Sequence record: PX915676.1
Length of the DNA stretch: 64,000 nt
Source: a phage
Direction: 5' to 3' (one strand)
Part shown: positions 902 through 8,126 of the stretch, one piece after another
How positions within the stretch are numbered: position 1 is the first letter of the stretch
How the letters are laid out: each line of letters opens with the position of its first letter
Notes under the pieces: model-generated
What the model was told of the DNA's origin: nothing
Database searches by the model: none
What the model saw: the letters and a program-made list of their open reading frames with translations, nothing else
Made by a program: the position numbers and the translations under genes

Positions 902-1375
902 TTAACTCTCGTCCGCTTCCTCCCCCTTTTCAGCGTCCTCAGAGTTGTCTTCTTCTGGAGGCATAACGTCGATACCAAGTGCTCCAGTCAAGAAGTCCTT
1001 GATTTGTGCATTCAATGATTCTTCGTTGATTACATTCTCTTCCTCAATCTTAACTTCAACAGAGGCCGCCTTAGGATATACCAGATCTGCAACTTTTGAT
1101 GCAGCCTTGAATCTAAGATCAGGTGGAATATTAGGATCTTCGTAAATTTGAATTAACACTTCATCAGGAGACAAATGACTTGCAGCAACACGGTCCAACA
1201 TTAATTGTGTCAGTTTACCTCTACTACCTTTGGGTCGTCCGAATTTATTTCCCTTTTGAAACTTCCCATTGCTTGGGTTCATACCACGGCCTTCAAGTTC
1301 TTCCGTTACTCCGGGTAATCTTCCTGTAATCTCAGCTACCTGTGCAGGCGTGAGTTCTCCGTTTTCTCCAAACAT
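902..1375 (-). CDS. hypothetical protein; position directly upstream of TerL suggests terminase small subunit
   Basis: Track ORF 157 aa; AAGGAG SD before ATG; basic GRPKGSRGK segment plus acidic C-terminus; function is positional inference only. Confidence 0.5.
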   Translation of the reverse strand: MFGENGELTPAQVAEITGRLPGVTEELEGRGMNPSNGKFQKGNKFGRPKGSRGKLTQLMLDRVAASHLSPDEVLIQIYEDPNIPPDLRFKAASKVADLVYPKAASVEVKIEEENVINEESLNAQIKDFLTGALGIDVMPPEEDNSEDAEKGEEADES

Positions 1376-1431: not shown

Positions 1432-2064
1432 TTACTTACAATCACCAACGGACAGGTTAAACATCTTACCTAGAGCAATCGTCTCACCTTCCCACGGAAG
1501 TTCTGCACCCTTTTCTTCCTCTAAAAGAATAGAGCCGTCGACCAAAAATTTTTCGTAGTCTCGCAGTGCGTCGTCTACTAACTCACTCTTGTGAATCCAC
1601 GTAATTGTTTCTGTACCATCCTCTTCGATTCTAACATCACGATGCCATTCATCTTTGGAGGTAATATAATCATGGAGCATTTCGTATTCAGCTTCTTCAA
1701 TCATCTCAATCATTGCACGAGCATAGTCAGGGAGGTGATCATGTTTAGTAGATTCGTATTCAACTACTTCCAGAGTAGAAGGCTTAGCCCGTGCAACTTC
1801 TTCAAGTACTTTTGAGCGATCTTTGTAGTAGTTCTCATATTTATCACCAATAGTACCGACTTGAAGTCCACGGTATTGTTCTACTAAACTCATCATATCT
1901 TTCTTCTCCGTAATAGTTGGTTTAAGAATACTTCCACTATATAAATCTTGTACAGCCAATCCTGAAACATTTCCCATAGTTTCTAAATGCTGTAAGCTAC
2001 AACCAGAGCGACATAGCTGTGAATTGTAATCGTTAAGGTCCATCGCTTGGATTAAATTATTCAT
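1432..2064 (-). CDS. hypothetical protein
   Basis: Track ORF trimmed to ATG at 2064-2062 (MNNLIQAMDL...) with AGGGAGA SD; late-operon orientation. Confidence 0.55.
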   Translation of the reverse strand: MNNLIQAMDLNDYNSQLCRSGCSLQHLETMGNVSGLAVQDLYSGSILKPTITEKKDMMSLVEQYRGLQVGTIGDKYENYYKDRSKVLEEVARAKPSTLEVVEYESTKHDHLPDYARAMIEMIEEAEYEMLHDYITSKDEWHRDVRIEEDGTETITWIHKSELVDDALRDYEKFLVDGSILLEEEKGAELPWEGETIALGKMFNLSVGDCK

Positions 2065-2311
2065 TTGTATCTCCCTTGCTGTAATCTTTGTATGTTTCTT
2101 TTCTGTAAGTGCGGAATGCTCTGAAGAAGAGCCAACCAAAACTACTTACATCAATTGTAATATCGAAATCTGTTTCATCATCTAAATCAACAAGACGGCC
2201 TAAGCATGTAGCTTCCATCCCTTCTTCAGAGTCACTGTTGATTACGAAAGCGTATGTCTCAGTTCTGAACCGAGGCACCATCTCTGATAAAAAGTCTAAT
2301 ACTAAATTCAT
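2057..2311 (-). CDS. hypothetical protein
   Basis: Track ORF 84 aa, first gene of the minus-strand block, overlaps next gene start by 8 nt. Confidence 0.45.
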   Translation of the reverse strand: MNLVLDFLSEMVPRFRTETYAFVINSDSEEGMEATCLGRLVDLDDETDFDITIDVSSFGWLFFRAFRTYRKETYKDYSKGDTNE

Positions 2312-2362
2312 AATTCTTCTCCTCTGAATAAGAGTATAAAGGGCACATCATAAGACCTACCC

Positions 2363-2619
2363 GTAAAGGCCACGTCATCTCTGATGACTACCTCACATTA
2401 ACACCCGTGAGAATACCTGTATTCATTTTCGTAGTCTTCTTCAGAGAAGCTACCGTATTCATCTTCTGTCATACATCCCTCTGATAAAGTTAAGACATAA
2501 AGGGGACTTCACGTTAAGGCACCCCCATAAAGGCCATGTCACGTTAAGGTCTGTCCATCCATGTGCTGTGTTTAAGCTTACCACATTTACTACATCTCCA
2601 AGTGGACTTATAAAGGGTG
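2363..2619. repeat. iterated short direct repeats (ATAAAGG boxes; 23-nt unit ATAAAGGnnnnnTCACGTTAAGG at 2497-2519 and 2527-2549)
   Basis: Read directly in the divergent non-coding region between late (minus) and early (plus) blocks. Confidence 0.5.
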
Positions 2620-2861
2620 TGAACTCTTTCATCCCCGTAAGCTTTGCGTATCCGATAGTACTCATGATCACATTTGAATTGCTTAATGATTAACTTAATT
2701 TTCCACATAAGTTCTCTTTCAACCTTATATATAAGAGTTTAAAATTCTGATTTGACCGAATGGGGCTAGCCGCTCGCCGCGCGTTTCCTAAAAGGGGGGA
2801 GTCCTCATTTAAAAAAGGGTTATTGGCAATGCCTTTACCTTCCCTTTCGACGTTCCACCTT

Positions 2862-3279
2862 TCCCCGTGCCTACTCCCCGTTATTCTTTCCCCGTGTATA
2901 CCATCCTATTCATTAGCTACCCGTTTATTTAGTTCCCCTTTAAAGAGTGAGAGAAAGGCTATACTCTGATAATGATTAGATTAAGGCACTATGAATAGGC
3001 TAATAATACCCATAAGCAATAGCCCACATCCCCCATAGTTTGATTGTAAATAGTTTCAATAGTAATGATTATGAGTGCAATAATGATGTATGTATTAATT
3101 AAGTGGAAAGATTATGTTTGATGTTTATTGTTTCTTTTATTACTTTCTTTTTTCAGCGTACATGAGCGTAGCGAATGGTCTTTGATGTTTGAGTTAACTA
3201 ATTATTTAAGTGGTATATTATTACCGCACTATCTTGCTATGTTTCCCCGTGGTCTGTTCTGCGGTTGTGTGTTCCCCGT
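2862..3279. repeat. five copies of TCCCCGT (2862, 2875, 2889, 3244, 3273)
   Basis: Direct inspection; three copies spaced 13-14 nt apart, two more 350 nt downstream. Confidence 0.45.
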
Positions 3280-3445
3280 TTGCCCTGGTCTGTTGGTCTG
3301 CTACCCGTAGCGTCAGCGTAACACCTGTAGGATTAGTGTTATAAAGTAACAATATCCAGTAAGCTGATGCTCTGAGTATGGAAAGTTTAGTAAATTAAAT
3401 TTCTTTAGTTTTCAGTAGGATGCAAGAAAGTTAGAAAATAAATGG

Positions 3446-3474
3446 TTGACAGCCTTTTCCTTTATTATATAGTT
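3446..3474 (+). promoter_or_regulatory. sigma70-type early promoter (TTGACA-N16-TATAGT)
   Basis: Consensus -35 TTGACA at 3446-3451 and TATAGT at 3468-3473, about 45 nt upstream of first plus-strand gene. Confidence 0.55.
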
Positions 3475-3518
3475 GTCAGCGTAGTTTGCAGTTTTCATCA
3501 ACCAAAAGGATTAACAAA

Positions 3519-4391
3519 ATGTCAAAAGTAGCGATTAACCACTTGAACAAAGCAAACGAAAGTCTTTCCTCTTTAGGCTTAACTGTTGGTAGTCCTGATG
3601 CGTGGATGGAAAACGAAAGTGCACGTAAAGGATTCAAAAACTCTGTAATGCTGGCTTGCTTAATCATTAACTCTACTGCGAACGCCTTACAGTGTGAAGA
3701 TGAAAGCACGTTCAAAGAAAACGGTTTTACCGATATGCAGGACGCTATTAATTGCTACATTCAAGCAAATTTAGATAGCTGGAATCAGAAGGATTGGCCT
3801 GAGTCATGCCGTGATGTTAAGGCTGAATTATCCCGCTTGTCTGTCATGGTTGAAGCATGGAACAAGAAAAACAAGAAACAGCCAATCAAGCCTACTGTTG
3901 CAAGTAAGATAATGAAGTCTGTCAATCTGGCAAGTTATGCACTGGTTGCAGCTATTGGTGTTAGTGCACTGGTCACATCTCTTTCTGATAAGGCTATCGC
4001 TAGTCCTACTCCTGCAACTGATGCCGCTAGTGTCTTCTCTAGTTCCATCAATAAGGGTTGGATGATTTGCAACGGTGCAGATAGTGACGGTGCTACCATC
4101 GTGCTAAAGATGAAATTTAGCAACGCTACTAATGATGGCGTTCTCTTTCAATCTAAAACGTTAGATAATCAGCCTAACAGTGATCTAGTTCTCAAGCGTA
4201 CTGATAACGATGCGGATATGGTGACATTTGGCACTGTACAACGTTATGAAGACGTTAAAGCTGTAACCAACCTAGTGAGCTATGGCCCGATCAATGAGTC
4301 GATGATTGCTACAACTGTTTATAATAACGCTAATAACGCTGTTTATACCGTTCACGTTAGTTTAGCCAACTGTATTAAGGCTAGTAAGTAA
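3519..4391 (+). CDS. hypothetical early protein
   Basis: Track ORF trimmed to ATG 3519 (MSKVAINHLNK...) with AAAGGA SD; first gene after promoter. Confidence 0.6.
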   Translation: MSKVAINHLNKANESLSSLGLTVGSPDAWMENESARKGFKNSVMLACLIINSTANALQCEDESTFKENGFTDMQDAINCYIQANLDSWNQKDWPESCRDVKAELSRLSVMVEAWNKKNKKQPIKPTVASKIMKSVNLASYALVAAIGVSALVTSLSDKAIASPTPATDAASVFSSSINKGWMICNGADSDGATIVLKMKFSNATNDGVLFQSKTLDNQPNSDLVLKRTDNDADMVTFGTVQRYEDVKAVTNLVSYGPINESMIATTVYNNANNAVYTVHVSLANCIKASK

Positions 4392-8069: not shown

Positions 8070-8092
8070 GTAAGACAATTTGAATAAACATA

Positions 8093-8126
8093 AGGCGCTA
8101 CCTTAACGGGTAGTGCCTTTTCTTTT
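8093..8126 (+). terminator. intrinsic terminator
   Basis: GGCGCTACC-TTAAC-GGGTAGTGCC hairpin (one G-U pair) plus TTTTCTTTT. Confidence 0.8.

What the first reader, a model, noticed from the sequence alone, without database searches (positions are those of the whole stretch)
2312..3445. Divergent switch region between late (minus) and early (plus) blocks with iterated short repeats
About 1.1 kb without convincing genes containing ATAAAGG boxes (five), a 23-nt direct repeat (2497-2519, 2527-2549) and TCCCCGT x5. Iterons of this type are typical of origins, packaging sites or genome ends.
Basis: seen in the sequence. Interest (0 to 1): 0.4.

Follow-up and report, generated by a model that had tools for sequence, protein, structure and literature searches.

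The report
Phage genome-end junction with iterons
This stretch is where the two ends of a phiEco32-like coliphage genome were joined by the assembler: it holds the 193-bp terminal repeat plus two families of short one-strand repeats that look like protein-binding sites, which is an ordinary feature of this phage group, though the short repeats appear not to have been described before.

Summary
The window is a phiEco32-like podophage (Kuravirus). Window 2768-2960 is 95% identical to the mapped 193-bp direct terminal repeat (DTR) of phiEco32. Records of phiEco32, SU10, YF01 and Paul start or stop at exactly these positions. The flagged "switch region" is therefore the collapsed junction of the two genome ends. 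Left-end genes run leftward and the first early gene, with a near-consensus sigma-70 promoter (3446-3473), runs rightward.

The repeats are real and far above chance:
- TCCCCGT occurs 6 times in 64 kb, all here and all on one strand.
- CCCGT-type boxes number 10: four in the DTR, three at 29-bp spacing on the early side, three on the late side.
- A 15-nt box, RTAAAGGSSAYNTCA, occurs 4 times, only here.

All are conserved across 15 Kuravirus genomes. In a divergent clade the CCCCGT boxes read ACCCAT at the same positions, so I read them as protein-binding iterons. T7 has the same architecture, with CCTAAAG arrays in and beside its DTR.

"No convincing genes" is wrong in part. A 54-aa gene (phrog_7696) and a 24-aa homologue of phi32_2 lie inside the region.

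The genome-end reading is supported. The origin reading remains untested. The DTR itself is already known for this group. What reads the iterons is unknown.

The parts
2768..2960 (.). Direct terminal repeat (single collapsed copy, 193 bp). In phiEco32 orientation it reads from 2960 down to 2768.
   Evidence: It is 185/194 identical to phiEco32 nt 1-193. phiEco32 position 1 corresponds to window 2960, and positions 193 and 77554 correspond to 2768. DTR annotations in Paul, YF01, 4E8, LAMP and NC-B break at the same points. Conservation collapses immediately after 2960.
2764..2771 (.). Inferred cut site at the late-side DTR boundary, GGCT|AGCC (cut between 2767 and 2768).
   Evidence: The boundary table for 14 genomes shows invariant CT|AG here. 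NC-B has GGCT|AGGT in record orientation.
2957..2964 (.). Inferred cut site at the early-side DTR boundary, GGCT|ATAC (cut between 2960 and 2961). Most relatives have GGCT|AGCA.
   Evidence: GGCT|A is present in 13 of 14 genomes, so the same short sequence lies at both boundaries.
2780..2838 (.). Near-invariant core of the DTR (CGCGTTTCCTAAAAGGGGGGAGTCCTCATTTAAAAAAGGGTTATTGGCAATGCCTTTAC). It contains two A-run/G-run units and an inverted TAAAGG box at 2824-2838.
   Evidence: It is invariant or nearly so in all 14 genomes, including the divergent clades. It matches the 'conserved region ~130-170' of the DTR reported in PMC9965538. SU10 reads vary in the homopolymer runs.
2860..2868 (+). B box 1 in the DTR (TTTCCCCGT).
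2874..2881 (+). B box 2 in the DTR (CTCCCCGT).
2887..2895 (+). B box 3 in the DTR (TTTCCCCGT). It aligns column for column with TTTACCCAT in Bas87, Bas88 and TH43.
2917..2924 (+). B box 4 in the DTR (CTACCCGT). This subtype is conserved in all clades.
3242..3250 (+). B box, early-side flank (TTTCCCCGT).
   Evidence: It reads TTACCCAT in the divergent clade.
3272..3279 (+). B box, early-side flank (TTCCCCGT), 29 bp after the previous box.
3301..3308 (+). B box, early-side flank (CTACCCGT), 29 bp after the previous box. A decayed fourth copy lies at about 3320-3327 (ACACCTGT; ACACCCGT in TH06, ECW14-3 and SGF2).
2357..2364 (+). B box, late-side flank (CTACCCGT), fused to A box 2363 as ACCCGTAAAGG.
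   Evidence: The composite ACCC(G/A)TAAAGG also occurs in Bas87, TH43 and NC-B.
2336..2350 (+). A box (ATAAAGGGCACATCA), 25 nt upstream of the phi32_4-homologue ATG on the - strand.
   Evidence: (family D1).
2363..2377 (+). A box (GTAAAGGCCACGTCA). It carries an 18-20-nt hairpin-forming insert at 2372-2391 that sits in a different A box in TH06, ShigP1, phiEc_1 and ECW14-3.
2497..2511 (+). A box (ATAAAGGGGACTTCA), part of the 24-nt repeat 2496-2519, 25 nt upstream of the ATG of the 24-aa ORF.
   Evidence: (D1, D3).
2527..2541 (+). A box (ATAAAGGCCATGTCA), part of the 24-nt repeat 2526-2549. It starts right after the stop codon of the 54-aa gene.
2544..2708 (-). Small gene of 54 aa with a CxH...CxxC pattern (zinc-ribbon-like); first gene at the left genome end.
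   Evidence: It matches phrog_7696 (E = 6e-17). It is annotated in phiEc_1, EC.W14-3, LAMP (gp0.1), NJ01 and Bas89. It is conserved at the protein level across divergent DNA (68% to Bas87).
2398..2472 (-). 24-aa acidic ORF (MTEDEYGSFSEEDYENEYRYSHGC), the short form of phi32_2.
   Evidence: TH43 keeps the peptide with synonymous or conservative changes.
2709..2767 (-). Conserved upstream region of the 54-aa gene. It holds the invariant palindrome CTTATATATAAG (2724-2735) and an IHF-consensus match (2740-2752). I take it to be the left-end promoter region.
   Evidence: Conservation. SU10 Table S2 lists this stretch as a potential sigma-70 promoter. The consensus scan did not score it. The IHF pattern is the only match in 2000-3800.
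2961..3240 (.). AT-rich (30% GC) non-coding spacer with islands of conservation at 3029-3042, 3068-3105, 3140-3160 and 3200-3230.
3446..3473 (+). Early sigma-70 promoter of the first early gene (TTGACA, 16 nt, TATAGT), about 680 bp from the physical end at 2768.
   Evidence: It scores 11 of 12 in the scan. The same sequence is listed as the early promoter upstream of CDS125 in SU10. It is conserved with its upstream A/T block in 12 of 14 genomes.
3519..4391 (+). First early gene, homologue of phi32_128 (290 aa from the ATG at 3519).
   Evidence: phrog_36409, E = 1e-199.
2057..2311 (-). Homologue of phi32_4 (84 aa); marks the left limit of the flagged region.
   Evidence: phrog_12698.

Best explanation
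The region is the collapsed end-to-end junction of a phiEco32-like (Kuravirus) genome.

What the region is:
- Virion DNA is linear and blunt-ended with a 193-bp direct terminal repeat. The assembler merged the two copies into one at 2768-2960.
- To its left lie the left-end genes, all on the - strand: a 54-aa zinc-ribbon-like protein, a 24-aa acidic peptide, gp4, gp5, a putative small terminase and the large terminase.
- To its right lie a 280-bp AT-rich spacer, three phased boxes, and the strong sigma-70 promoter that starts early transcription about 680 bp from the physical end.

How I think it works (inferred, T7-type model): during replication the genomes form concatemers with one repeat per junction. 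Terminase cuts at both boundaries of the repeat, each lying in the same short sequence GGCT^A(G). The repeat is duplicated by fill-in or strand-displacement synthesis, giving each packaged genome a copy at both ends.

The short repeats are two families of duplex protein-binding sites, all pointing the same way:
- B boxes have the form Y(C/A)CCCGT. Four lie in the repeat, three at 29-bp spacing on the early side, and a few on the late side.
- A boxes have the form RTAAAGGSSAYNTCA and lie in two pairs on the late side, between the repeat and the terminase genes.

I propose that these arrays mark the junction and load a phage protein complex that recognises, processes or protects the ends. This would parallel the co-oriented CCTAAAG arrays in and beside the T7 terminal repeat.

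Status of each step:
- Shown here: the homology-based position of the repeat and its boundaries; that the boxes are real, strand-specific, conserved and changed in parallel between clades; the genes and the promoter.
- Inferred: that cutting occurs at GGCT^A in this particular phage; that the boxes bind a protein; that their role lies in end recognition or processing.
For: Identity of the phage and the repeat:
- 92 phage records match the region, 86 of them Escherichia and 3 Shigella phages, with phiEco32 and SU10 among the listed hits; the records I then fetched are classified as Kuravirus where classified to genus.
- The window aligns to both ends of phiEco32, and the DTR is 95% identical.
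- Independent records begin or end at window 2960 and 2768, and several carry DTR annotations.
- The papers give direct evidence for the DTR in relatives: restriction mapping and primer walking for phiEco32, full-length nanopore reads for YF01, PhageTerm for Paul, and sharp read drop-off for SU10.

Cut sites: both boundaries share GGCT|A in 13-14 of 14 genomes and in NC-B.

Boxes:
- Enrichment and strand bias.
- B boxes sit at the same offsets in all 14 aligned genomes, with almost none on the opposite strand (0-1 per segment per genome).
- At least four homologous B boxes read TCCCCGT in this clade and TACCCAT in Bas87, Bas88, TH43 and NC-B.
- The enrichment is reciprocal genome-wide. TCCCCGT is 6/6 in the junction here and 0/3 in Bas87. 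TACCCAT is 6/17 in the Bas87 junction and 1/11 here.
- A-box copy number and arrangement vary by slippage (three tandem 14-nt units in SGF2; an 18-nt indel moves between boxes), while the TAAAGG core is kept in all clades.
- There is no RNA family, tRNA or significant single-strand structure here, which fits duplex binding sites.

T7 comparison: T7 has CCTAAAG 11 times at its left end (3 in the DTR, 8 just after it) and 5 times at its right end, with none on the other strand. T3 is similar.

Promoter.
Against: - No reads from this phage are available, so its own termini are inferred by homology only.
- No binding protein has been identified.
- The putative small terminase (157 aa) and the large terminase N-terminus are 92-94% identical between clades whose B boxes differ. 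It fits better with the invariant DTR core, the cut sites and the TAAAGG core.
- The small-terminase assignment itself could not be confirmed.
- Some box copies lie in coding sequence (2401, 2631) and may be coincidental.
- As far as I recall, the function of the analogous T7 arrays has not been established, so the analogy does not prove a role.
- Sequence similarity to the T7/T3 junction is not significant.
Confidence: 0.6

Rival explanations
1. The boxes are iterons of a replication origin. An initiator would bind the phased repeats and open the adjacent AT-rich tract (2961-3240), so the junction region would double as ori in circular or concatemeric replicative DNA.
For: - The short repeats are co-oriented, and three of them are spaced 29 bp apart.
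- A 280-bp tract of 30% GC lies next to them.
- The cumulative GC skew has its minimum near 2850-3150.
- The conserved islands in the spacer have no assigned function.
Against: - The skew switch coincides with the switch of coding strand, which explains it equally well.
- The boxes are 8-15 bp, shorter than typical 17-22-bp iterons.
- No initiator-like gene lies next to them: the neighbours have only unknown-function PHROG families and no Pfam hit.
- The single DnaA-box match (2699-2707) lies over the start of the 54-aa gene, and the count across the window is at chance level.
- In the infecting linear genome the three clusters lie on opposite ends.
Confidence: 0.15
2. The boxes are operators for a transcription regulator that controls the two outward-facing promoters (the left-end promoter and the early promoter P128) and the small left-end genes.
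For: - Each pair of A boxes precedes a start codon, and the proximal box lies exactly 25 nt from the ATG in both cases (2497 to 2472 and 2336 to 2311).
- The two modules share CCCTTTAT..CTTA..TCAGAGG.
- The B cluster at 3242-3308 lies 140-200 bp upstream of P128.
Against: - Four B boxes sit inside the terminal repeat, far from either promoter.
- NJ01 and XT18 have replaced the P128 module but keep the B boxes.
- The box-to-ATG distance is not conserved; it is 36 nt in NC-B.
- The boxes match neither the sigma-70 consensus nor the gp36 promoter consensus TAATGTATA.
Confidence: 0.2
3. The repeats are by-products of coding sequence or of base composition, or simply chance, and have no function of their own.
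For: - phiEco32 annotates ORFs (phi32_1 to phi32_3) over the A-box area.
- Two B-type copies (2401, 2631) and one ATAAAGG copy (2610) do lie in conserved small genes.
- The + strand is C-rich up to about 3000.
Against: - The enrichment P values are 1e-7 to 1e-11, with almost complete strand bias.
- The phi32_1 frame has no PHROG family.
- The 14-nt tandem period in SGF2 and TH43 is not a multiple of three.
- The boxes at 3242-3308 lie in a region of positive GC skew and without ORFs.
- The same two-base change at several homologous boxes in another clade is not expected without selection.
Confidence: 0.04

Closest known systems
Direct terminal repeat of phiEco32 and other Kuravirus phages (Savalia et al. 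2008 as cited in PMC9965538; SU10, PMC4281155; YF01, PMC9965538)
   Same: - The sequence is the same (95% identity), with the same 193-bp length and the same boundaries.
- The conserved core is the same.
- The flanking genes and the early promoter are the same.
   Different: - Nothing essential differs. This phage has GGCT|ATAC instead of GGCT|AGCA at the early-side boundary, a 66-nt deletion in the phi32_2 homologue, and an 18-nt insert in one A box.
- The papers I could read describe the DTR, its conserved core and a CCCTTTTTTA repeat, but not the A-box and B-box arrays.
Short co-oriented repeat arrays in and beside the terminal repetition of phage T7 and T3 (CCTAAAG heptamers; called SRL/SRR in the T7 genome paper, from memory)
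   Same: - A short DTR (160-231 bp against 193 bp).
- Short repeats on one strand only, inside the repeat and in both flanks.
- Tandem units with a 13-14-nt period.
- Related sequence at both cut sites.
- Host-RNAP early promoters several hundred bp from the leading end (T7 A1 at 498, P128 at about 680).
- The A-box core (A/G)TAAAGG resembles (C/A)TAAAG.
   Different: - There is no significant sequence similarity between the junctions.
- Kuravirus has two box families rather than one.
- There are no phage-RNAP promoters (phiOL/phiOR) at the junction, because these phages use host RNAP with a phage sigma factor.
- The late-side array is separated from the repeat by a small gene.
Lambda cosB (terminase small-subunit R sites plus an IHF site between the cut site and the terminase genes)
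   Same: Repeated short sites and one IHF-consensus match lie between the cut site and the terminase genes.
   Different: - The ends are a blunt direct repeat, not cohesive.
- Binding by the small terminase is untested, and the small-terminase assignment is itself unconfirmed.
Origin iterons of lambda-type phages and iteron plasmids
   Same: Direct repeats with roughly helical phasing lie next to an AT-rich tract.
   Different: - The units are much shorter.
- There is no adjacent initiator gene.
- The arrays straddle the genome ends.

Membership tests
Kuravirus / phiEco32-type direct terminal repeat | Sequence homologous to the experimentally mapped DTR, with the same boundaries | tested here: met
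   The DTR is 185/194 identical to phiEco32 nt 1-193. The boundaries at 2768 and 2960 coincide with the ends of the phiEco32, SU10, YF01 and Paul records.
Kuravirus / phiEco32-type direct terminal repeat | Conserved core at about nt 130-170 of the repeat | tested here: met
   Window 2791-2831 is invariant in 14 genomes, and the feature is described in PMC9965538.
Kuravirus / phiEco32-type direct terminal repeat | Flanking synteny: small left-end genes leading to terminase on one side, and the first early gene with its sigma-70 promoter on the other | tested here: met
Kuravirus / phiEco32-type direct terminal repeat | The repeat is physically present at both ends of the virion DNA of this phage (read pile-up, blunt ends) | not testable with these tools
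   No reads are available for the window. It has been shown only for relatives.
T7-type terminal short-repeat arrays | Short repeats confined to one strand, within the DTR and in both flanks | tested here: met
   In the window, B boxes are 10 on the + strand and 0 on the - strand, and the arrangement holds across 14 genomes. T7 has CCTAAAG 16 times on one strand and 0 on the other.
T7-type terminal short-repeat arrays | Sequence homology of the junction to T7/T3 | tested here: not met
   Local alignment against shuffles gives p = 0.11-0.31, and 227 of 3196 window tiles score as well.
T7-type terminal short-repeat arrays | Phage-specific promoters reading across the junction (phiOR/phiOL) | tested here: not met
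   There is no gp36-consensus promoter in 2312-3445 at up to 1 mismatch, apart from a non-conserved - strand hit inside the DTR. The nearest conserved sequence is TGATGTATG, with 2 mismatches.
Replication-origin iterons | Three or more phased direct repeats next to an AT-rich unwinding tract | tested here: inconclusive
   Three boxes at 29-bp spacing lie next to a tract of 30% GC. However, the units are only 8-9 bp long.
Replication-origin iterons | A cognate initiator gene nearby, or DnaA boxes | tested here: not met
   The neighbouring proteins have no Pfam domain and only unknown-function PHROG families. The single DnaA-box match lies in coding sequence, and the count is at chance level.
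Terminase recognition site of the cosB/pac type | Repeated sites between the cut site and the terminase genes | tested here: met
   The A boxes at 2336-2541 lie between the DTR and the 157-aa and TerL genes.
Terminase recognition site of the cosB/pac type | The sites are bound by the small terminase subunit | not testable with these tools

The most novel reading that the evidence does not exclude
The B boxes (and perhaps the A boxes) are read by a fast-evolving, still unidentified phage protein that binds the genome ends.

The argument rests on three observations:
- At least four homologous boxes switch from TCCCCGT to TACCCAT between Kuravirus clades.
- The shared CTACCCGT subtype stays the same across clades.
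- The terminase proteins stay above 90% identical between those clades.

Together these suggest a clade-specific 'end code' separate from terminase. Such a code could serve in end protection, concatemer-junction marking, or exclusion of related co-infecting phages. The same logic might explain the long-unexplained CCTAAAG arrays of T7.
Probability: 0.3. Interest if true: 0.55.

Novelty: new member of a known kind. Interest (0 to 1): 0.3.

Why it matters
For annotation, this fixes the true genome start and end of the phage. It shows that the contig is circularly permuted with the repeat collapsed, so the real genome is 193 bp longer. It also corrects small-gene calls at the left end.

For biology, the terminal repeat itself is textbook for this group. 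The strand-specific box arrays, and their parallel change between clades, give a concrete and testable handle on how T7-type terminal-repeat phages mark and process their ends. That question is still not settled even for T7. The boxes would also need to be kept when building packaging-competent plasmids or engineered Kuravirus genomes.

Tried and rejected
1. Homology between the T7/T3 junction and the Kuravirus junction. A palindrome followed by TTTAAAAT some 22-24 nt before the cut looked shared, but local alignment is not better than shuffles (p = 0.11-0.31). Rejected.

2. A boxes as promoters. They match neither the sigma-70 pattern nor the gp36 consensus TAATGTATA, and their distance to the ATG is not conserved in NC-B. 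Not supported.

3. An RNA element. There is no Rfam match at E up to 1, no tRNA, and no TRF array. Single-strand folds of the junction are no more stable than shuffles (z from +0.3 to +1.0). Only the small hairpin at 2374-2388 is slightly favoured (z = -1.5).

4. phi32_1-type ORF over the A boxes (2459..2671, - strand). It has no PHROG or Pfam family. The overlapping 54-aa frame is the conserved one.

5. Confirming that the 157-aa protein (902..1375, - strand) is the small terminase.
- Pfam gives only a weak DUF5681 match (32 of 36 homologues, best E = 1.4e-5, below the cut-off).
- NCBIfam and PDB sequence searches found nothing.
- Result: inconclusive.

6. The primary phiEco32 papers (PMC2587145, PMC3275717) are not held in the library. 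Their results are cited only through later open papers.

7. NarL-heptamer and DnaA-box look-alikes were considered and dropped as coincidences (for DnaA). The termini of more distant relatives (7-11, Privateer) are not mapped, so they could not extend the comparison.
Full report
**What the window is.** A megablast of 2000-3800 finds 92 phage records, 86 of them Escherichia and 3 Shigella phages, and phiEco32 and SU10 are among the listed hits. The records I then fetched are classified as Kuravirus where classified to genus. The window + strand corresponds to the reverse orientation of the phiEco32 record. Window 2057..2311(-) is phi32_4. Window 3519..4391(+) is phi32_128, the first gene of the early cluster.

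**The terminal repeat.**
- phiEco32 nt 1 aligns to window 2960. Its nt 193, and equally its last base 77554, align to window 2768.
- The stretch 2768-2960 is 185/194 identical to the phiEco32 repeat.
- In a more sensitive search, many records start at the position matching window 2960 (phiEco32, IMEP8, CHD5UKE1, WFI101126, Paul and others) or stop at the position matching 2768 (SU10, YF01).
- Several carry a DTR annotation at that place: Paul 1-193 by PhageTerm, YF01 193 bp, 4E8 206 bp, LAMP 172 bp. NC-B has an exact 250-bp repeat.
- The literature states that the phiEco32 DTR was found by restriction profiling, primer walking and subcloning, and that of YF01 by full-length nanopore reads. DTRs of 192-193 bp with a conserved core at about 130-170 were identified in 30 phages.
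- SU10 reads drop off sharply after the last base of each repeat, which indicates blunt ends.
- The window holds a single copy with both unique flanks attached, so it comes from a circularly permuted assembly in which the repeat was collapsed.

**Boundaries.** In a MAFFT alignment of the window with 13 other Kuravirus junctions, conservation is high through the repeat and collapses right after 2960. Both boundaries lie in the same short sequence:
- Late side: ...GGCT|AGCC..., with invariant CT|AG in 14 of 14 genomes.
- Early side: ...AAGGCT|A(G/T)..., in 13 of 14 genomes.
- NC-B, from a divergent clade with a 250-bp repeat, has GCT|AGCC and GGCT|AGGT.

This is what a T7-type mechanism with two sequence-specific cuts would predict, but cutting has not been shown for this phage.

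- All six TCCCCGT copies in the 64-kb window lie between 2632 and 3279 on the + strand (P = 3e-11).
- The core CCCGT has 10 of its 30 + strand copies and 0 of its 17 - strand copies in the region (P = 7e-11).
- I call these B boxes. Four are in the repeat (2860-2868, 2874-2881, 2887-2895, 2917-2924). Three are on the early side at 29-bp spacing (3242, 3272, 3301). Three are on the late side (2357, 2401, 2631).
- The last two of those late-side copies sit in small coding sequences and may be coincidental.
- The ATAAAGG boxes belong to a 15-nt family, RTAAAGGSSAYNTCA (A boxes). It has four copies at 2336, 2363, 2497 and 2527 and none elsewhere in the window (expected 0.36).
- The copy at 2610 is a coding coincidence, and the one at 3459 (- strand) lies in the early promoter spacer.
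- The 23-nt repeat is confirmed as a 24-nt pair at 83% identity.

**Conservation and co-variation.**
- In all 14 aligned genomes the B boxes occur only on the + strand, with almost none on the other (0-1 per segment per genome), and the four in the repeat keep their relative order and spacing (same offsets in the 193-bp-DTR genomes).
- In the clade of Bas87, Bas88, TH43 and NC-B, the boxes that read T(T/C)CCCCGT here read (C/T)TACCCAT at the aligned positions. This holds both inside the repeat and on the early side. The CTACCCGT subtype is unchanged.
- Whole-genome counts are reciprocal. In Bas87, TACCCAT has 6 of 17 copies in its 1.25-kb junction and TCCCCGT has 0 of 3. In the window, TCCCCGT is 6/6 and TACCCAT 1/11.
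- The same two-base change at several short, separate sites is hard to explain without a reader that changed its specificity.
- A boxes keep the TAAAGG core in every clade but vary in number and arrangement. SGF2 and TH43 have three tandem 14-nt units.
- An 18-nt hairpin-forming indel sits in box 2363 here but in box 2497 in four relatives. This is the slippage behaviour typical of iteron arrays.
- A and B boxes are sometimes fused, as ACCC(G/A)TAAAGG.

**What else is in the region.**
- It is not gene-free. 2544..2708(-) encodes a 54-aa CxH...CxxC protein in phrog_7696. It is annotated in several relatives and conserved at the protein level where the DNA has diverged.
- The phiEco32 record instead annotates an overlapping frame that has no family support.
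- 2398..2472(-) encodes the C-terminal 24 aa of phi32_2. The window lacks 66 nt between two ATGACNGAAGATGAAT repeats.
- Upstream of the 54-aa gene lies an invariant palindrome, CTTATATATAAG, and an IHF-consensus match. The SU10 authors list this stretch as a potential sigma-70 promoter, although the simple scan does not score it.
- On the other side, TTGACA-16-TATAGT at 3446-3473 scores 11 of 12 and is the published early promoter. It lies about 680 bp from the physical end, comparable to the T7 A1-A3 promoters at 498-750.
- The AT-rich spacer 2961-3240 (30% GC) has four conserved islands of unknown role.
- No Rfam family, tRNA, tandem-repeat array or significant single-strand structure was found.

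**Comparison with T7.** I fetched the T7 and T3 ends.
- T7 has a 160-bp repeat with CCTAAAG three times inside it, eight times in the 180 bp after the left copy, and two more just before the right copy. There are none on the other strand. T3 is similar.
- The architecture is therefore shared: a short repeat, one-strand short iterons in and on both sides of it, and host-RNAP promoters some hundreds of bp in.
- A tempting local similarity (palindrome plus TTTAAAAT before the cut) is not significant. This is analogy, or very remote homology, and not membership.

**Who reads the boxes?**
- The 157-aa protein next to the large terminase is the small terminase according to PMC9965538, by position. 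It is 92% identical between the window and Bas87, and the large terminase N-terminus is 94% identical. The median for all ORFs is 63%.
- Conserved terminase fits the conserved elements: the DTR core, GGCT^A and the TAAAGG core. It fits poorly with the B boxes that changed.
- I could not confirm the small-terminase fold.
Diverged end-proximal proteins (gp4 at 54%, gp128 at 58%, the 54-aa protein at 68%) are candidates only.

**Verdict.** The terminal repeat is already known for this phage group, so the finding is a new member of a known kind. The box arrays and their parallel change between clades are not mentioned in the papers I could search. They are the only part with some novelty.

Noticed in passing
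window 2544-2708 (-): A 54-aa CxH...CxxC (zinc-ribbon-like) protein, phrog_7696, is the first gene at the left genome end. The phiEco32 reference annotates a different, unsupported overlapping frame (phi32_1), which is probably a mis-annotation.
   Followed up: partly
window 2398-2472 (-): A 24-aa highly acidic ORF (MTEDEYGSFSEEDYENEYRYSHGC) equals the C-terminal half of phi32_2. The window lacks 66 nt between two ATGACNGAAGATGAAT direct repeats. The peptide is conserved in TH43 with conservative changes.
   Followed up: partly
window 2372-2391: An 18-20-nt indel that forms a 6-bp hairpin (GTCATC TCT GATGAC) sits inside A box 2363 here but inside the A box equivalent to 2497 in TH06, ShigP1, phiEc_1 and EC.W14-3. 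It looks like slippage between half-boxes.
   Followed up: partly
window 3068-3105: A block invariant in all clades (ATGAGTG.A.TA.TGATGTATGTAT). Its TGATGTATG is two transitions away from the phage sigma (gp36) promoter consensus TAATGTATA and points toward the early genes. No such promoter is reported here.
   Followed up: no
window 3200-3264: A conserved block ATTATTTAAGTGGTATATTATTACCGCA, with an extended -10-like TGGTATATT in this clade only, is followed by a weak hairpin at 3247-3264 that overlaps a B box. Its meaning is unclear.
   Followed up: no
window 2724-2752: An invariant 12-bp palindrome CTTATATATAAG and, 5 bp further on, the only IHF-consensus match (AATCAGAATTTTA, - strand) in 2000-3800. 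Both lie 16-44 bp outside the late-side DTR boundary.
   Followed up: partly
window ~3279/3280 and ~3475: These are mosaic breakpoints. Many relatives (MN03, PGN6866, FS2B, NJ01, XT18) lose similarity right after the second early-side B box, and others lose it after the early promoter. NJ01 and XT18 carry a different first-early-gene module but keep the B boxes.
   Followed up: partly
window 2788-2820: The homopolymer runs (A4G6 and A6G3) in the DTR core correspond to the CCCTTTTTTA repeats that vary between reads and between the left and right repeat copies in SU10. The window has one more G and one fewer A than phiEco32 in the first run, so a sequencing or assembly error, or real heterogeneity, is possible.
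   Followed up: no
window 8092-8125: An intrinsic-terminator-like hairpin, AGGCGCTACCTTAACGGGTAGTGCC followed by TTTTCTTTT, lies downstream of the 7161-8069 gene. It contains CTACCCGT and CCTTAACG by chance, which explains the out-of-region hits for those words.
   Followed up: no
window 902-1375 (-): The 157-aa protein next to the large terminase, called small terminase by position in PMC9965538, gives only a weak DUF5681 signal and a mid-confidence all-helical model with no terminase-like structural match. Its assignment deserves a proper test.
   Followed up: partly
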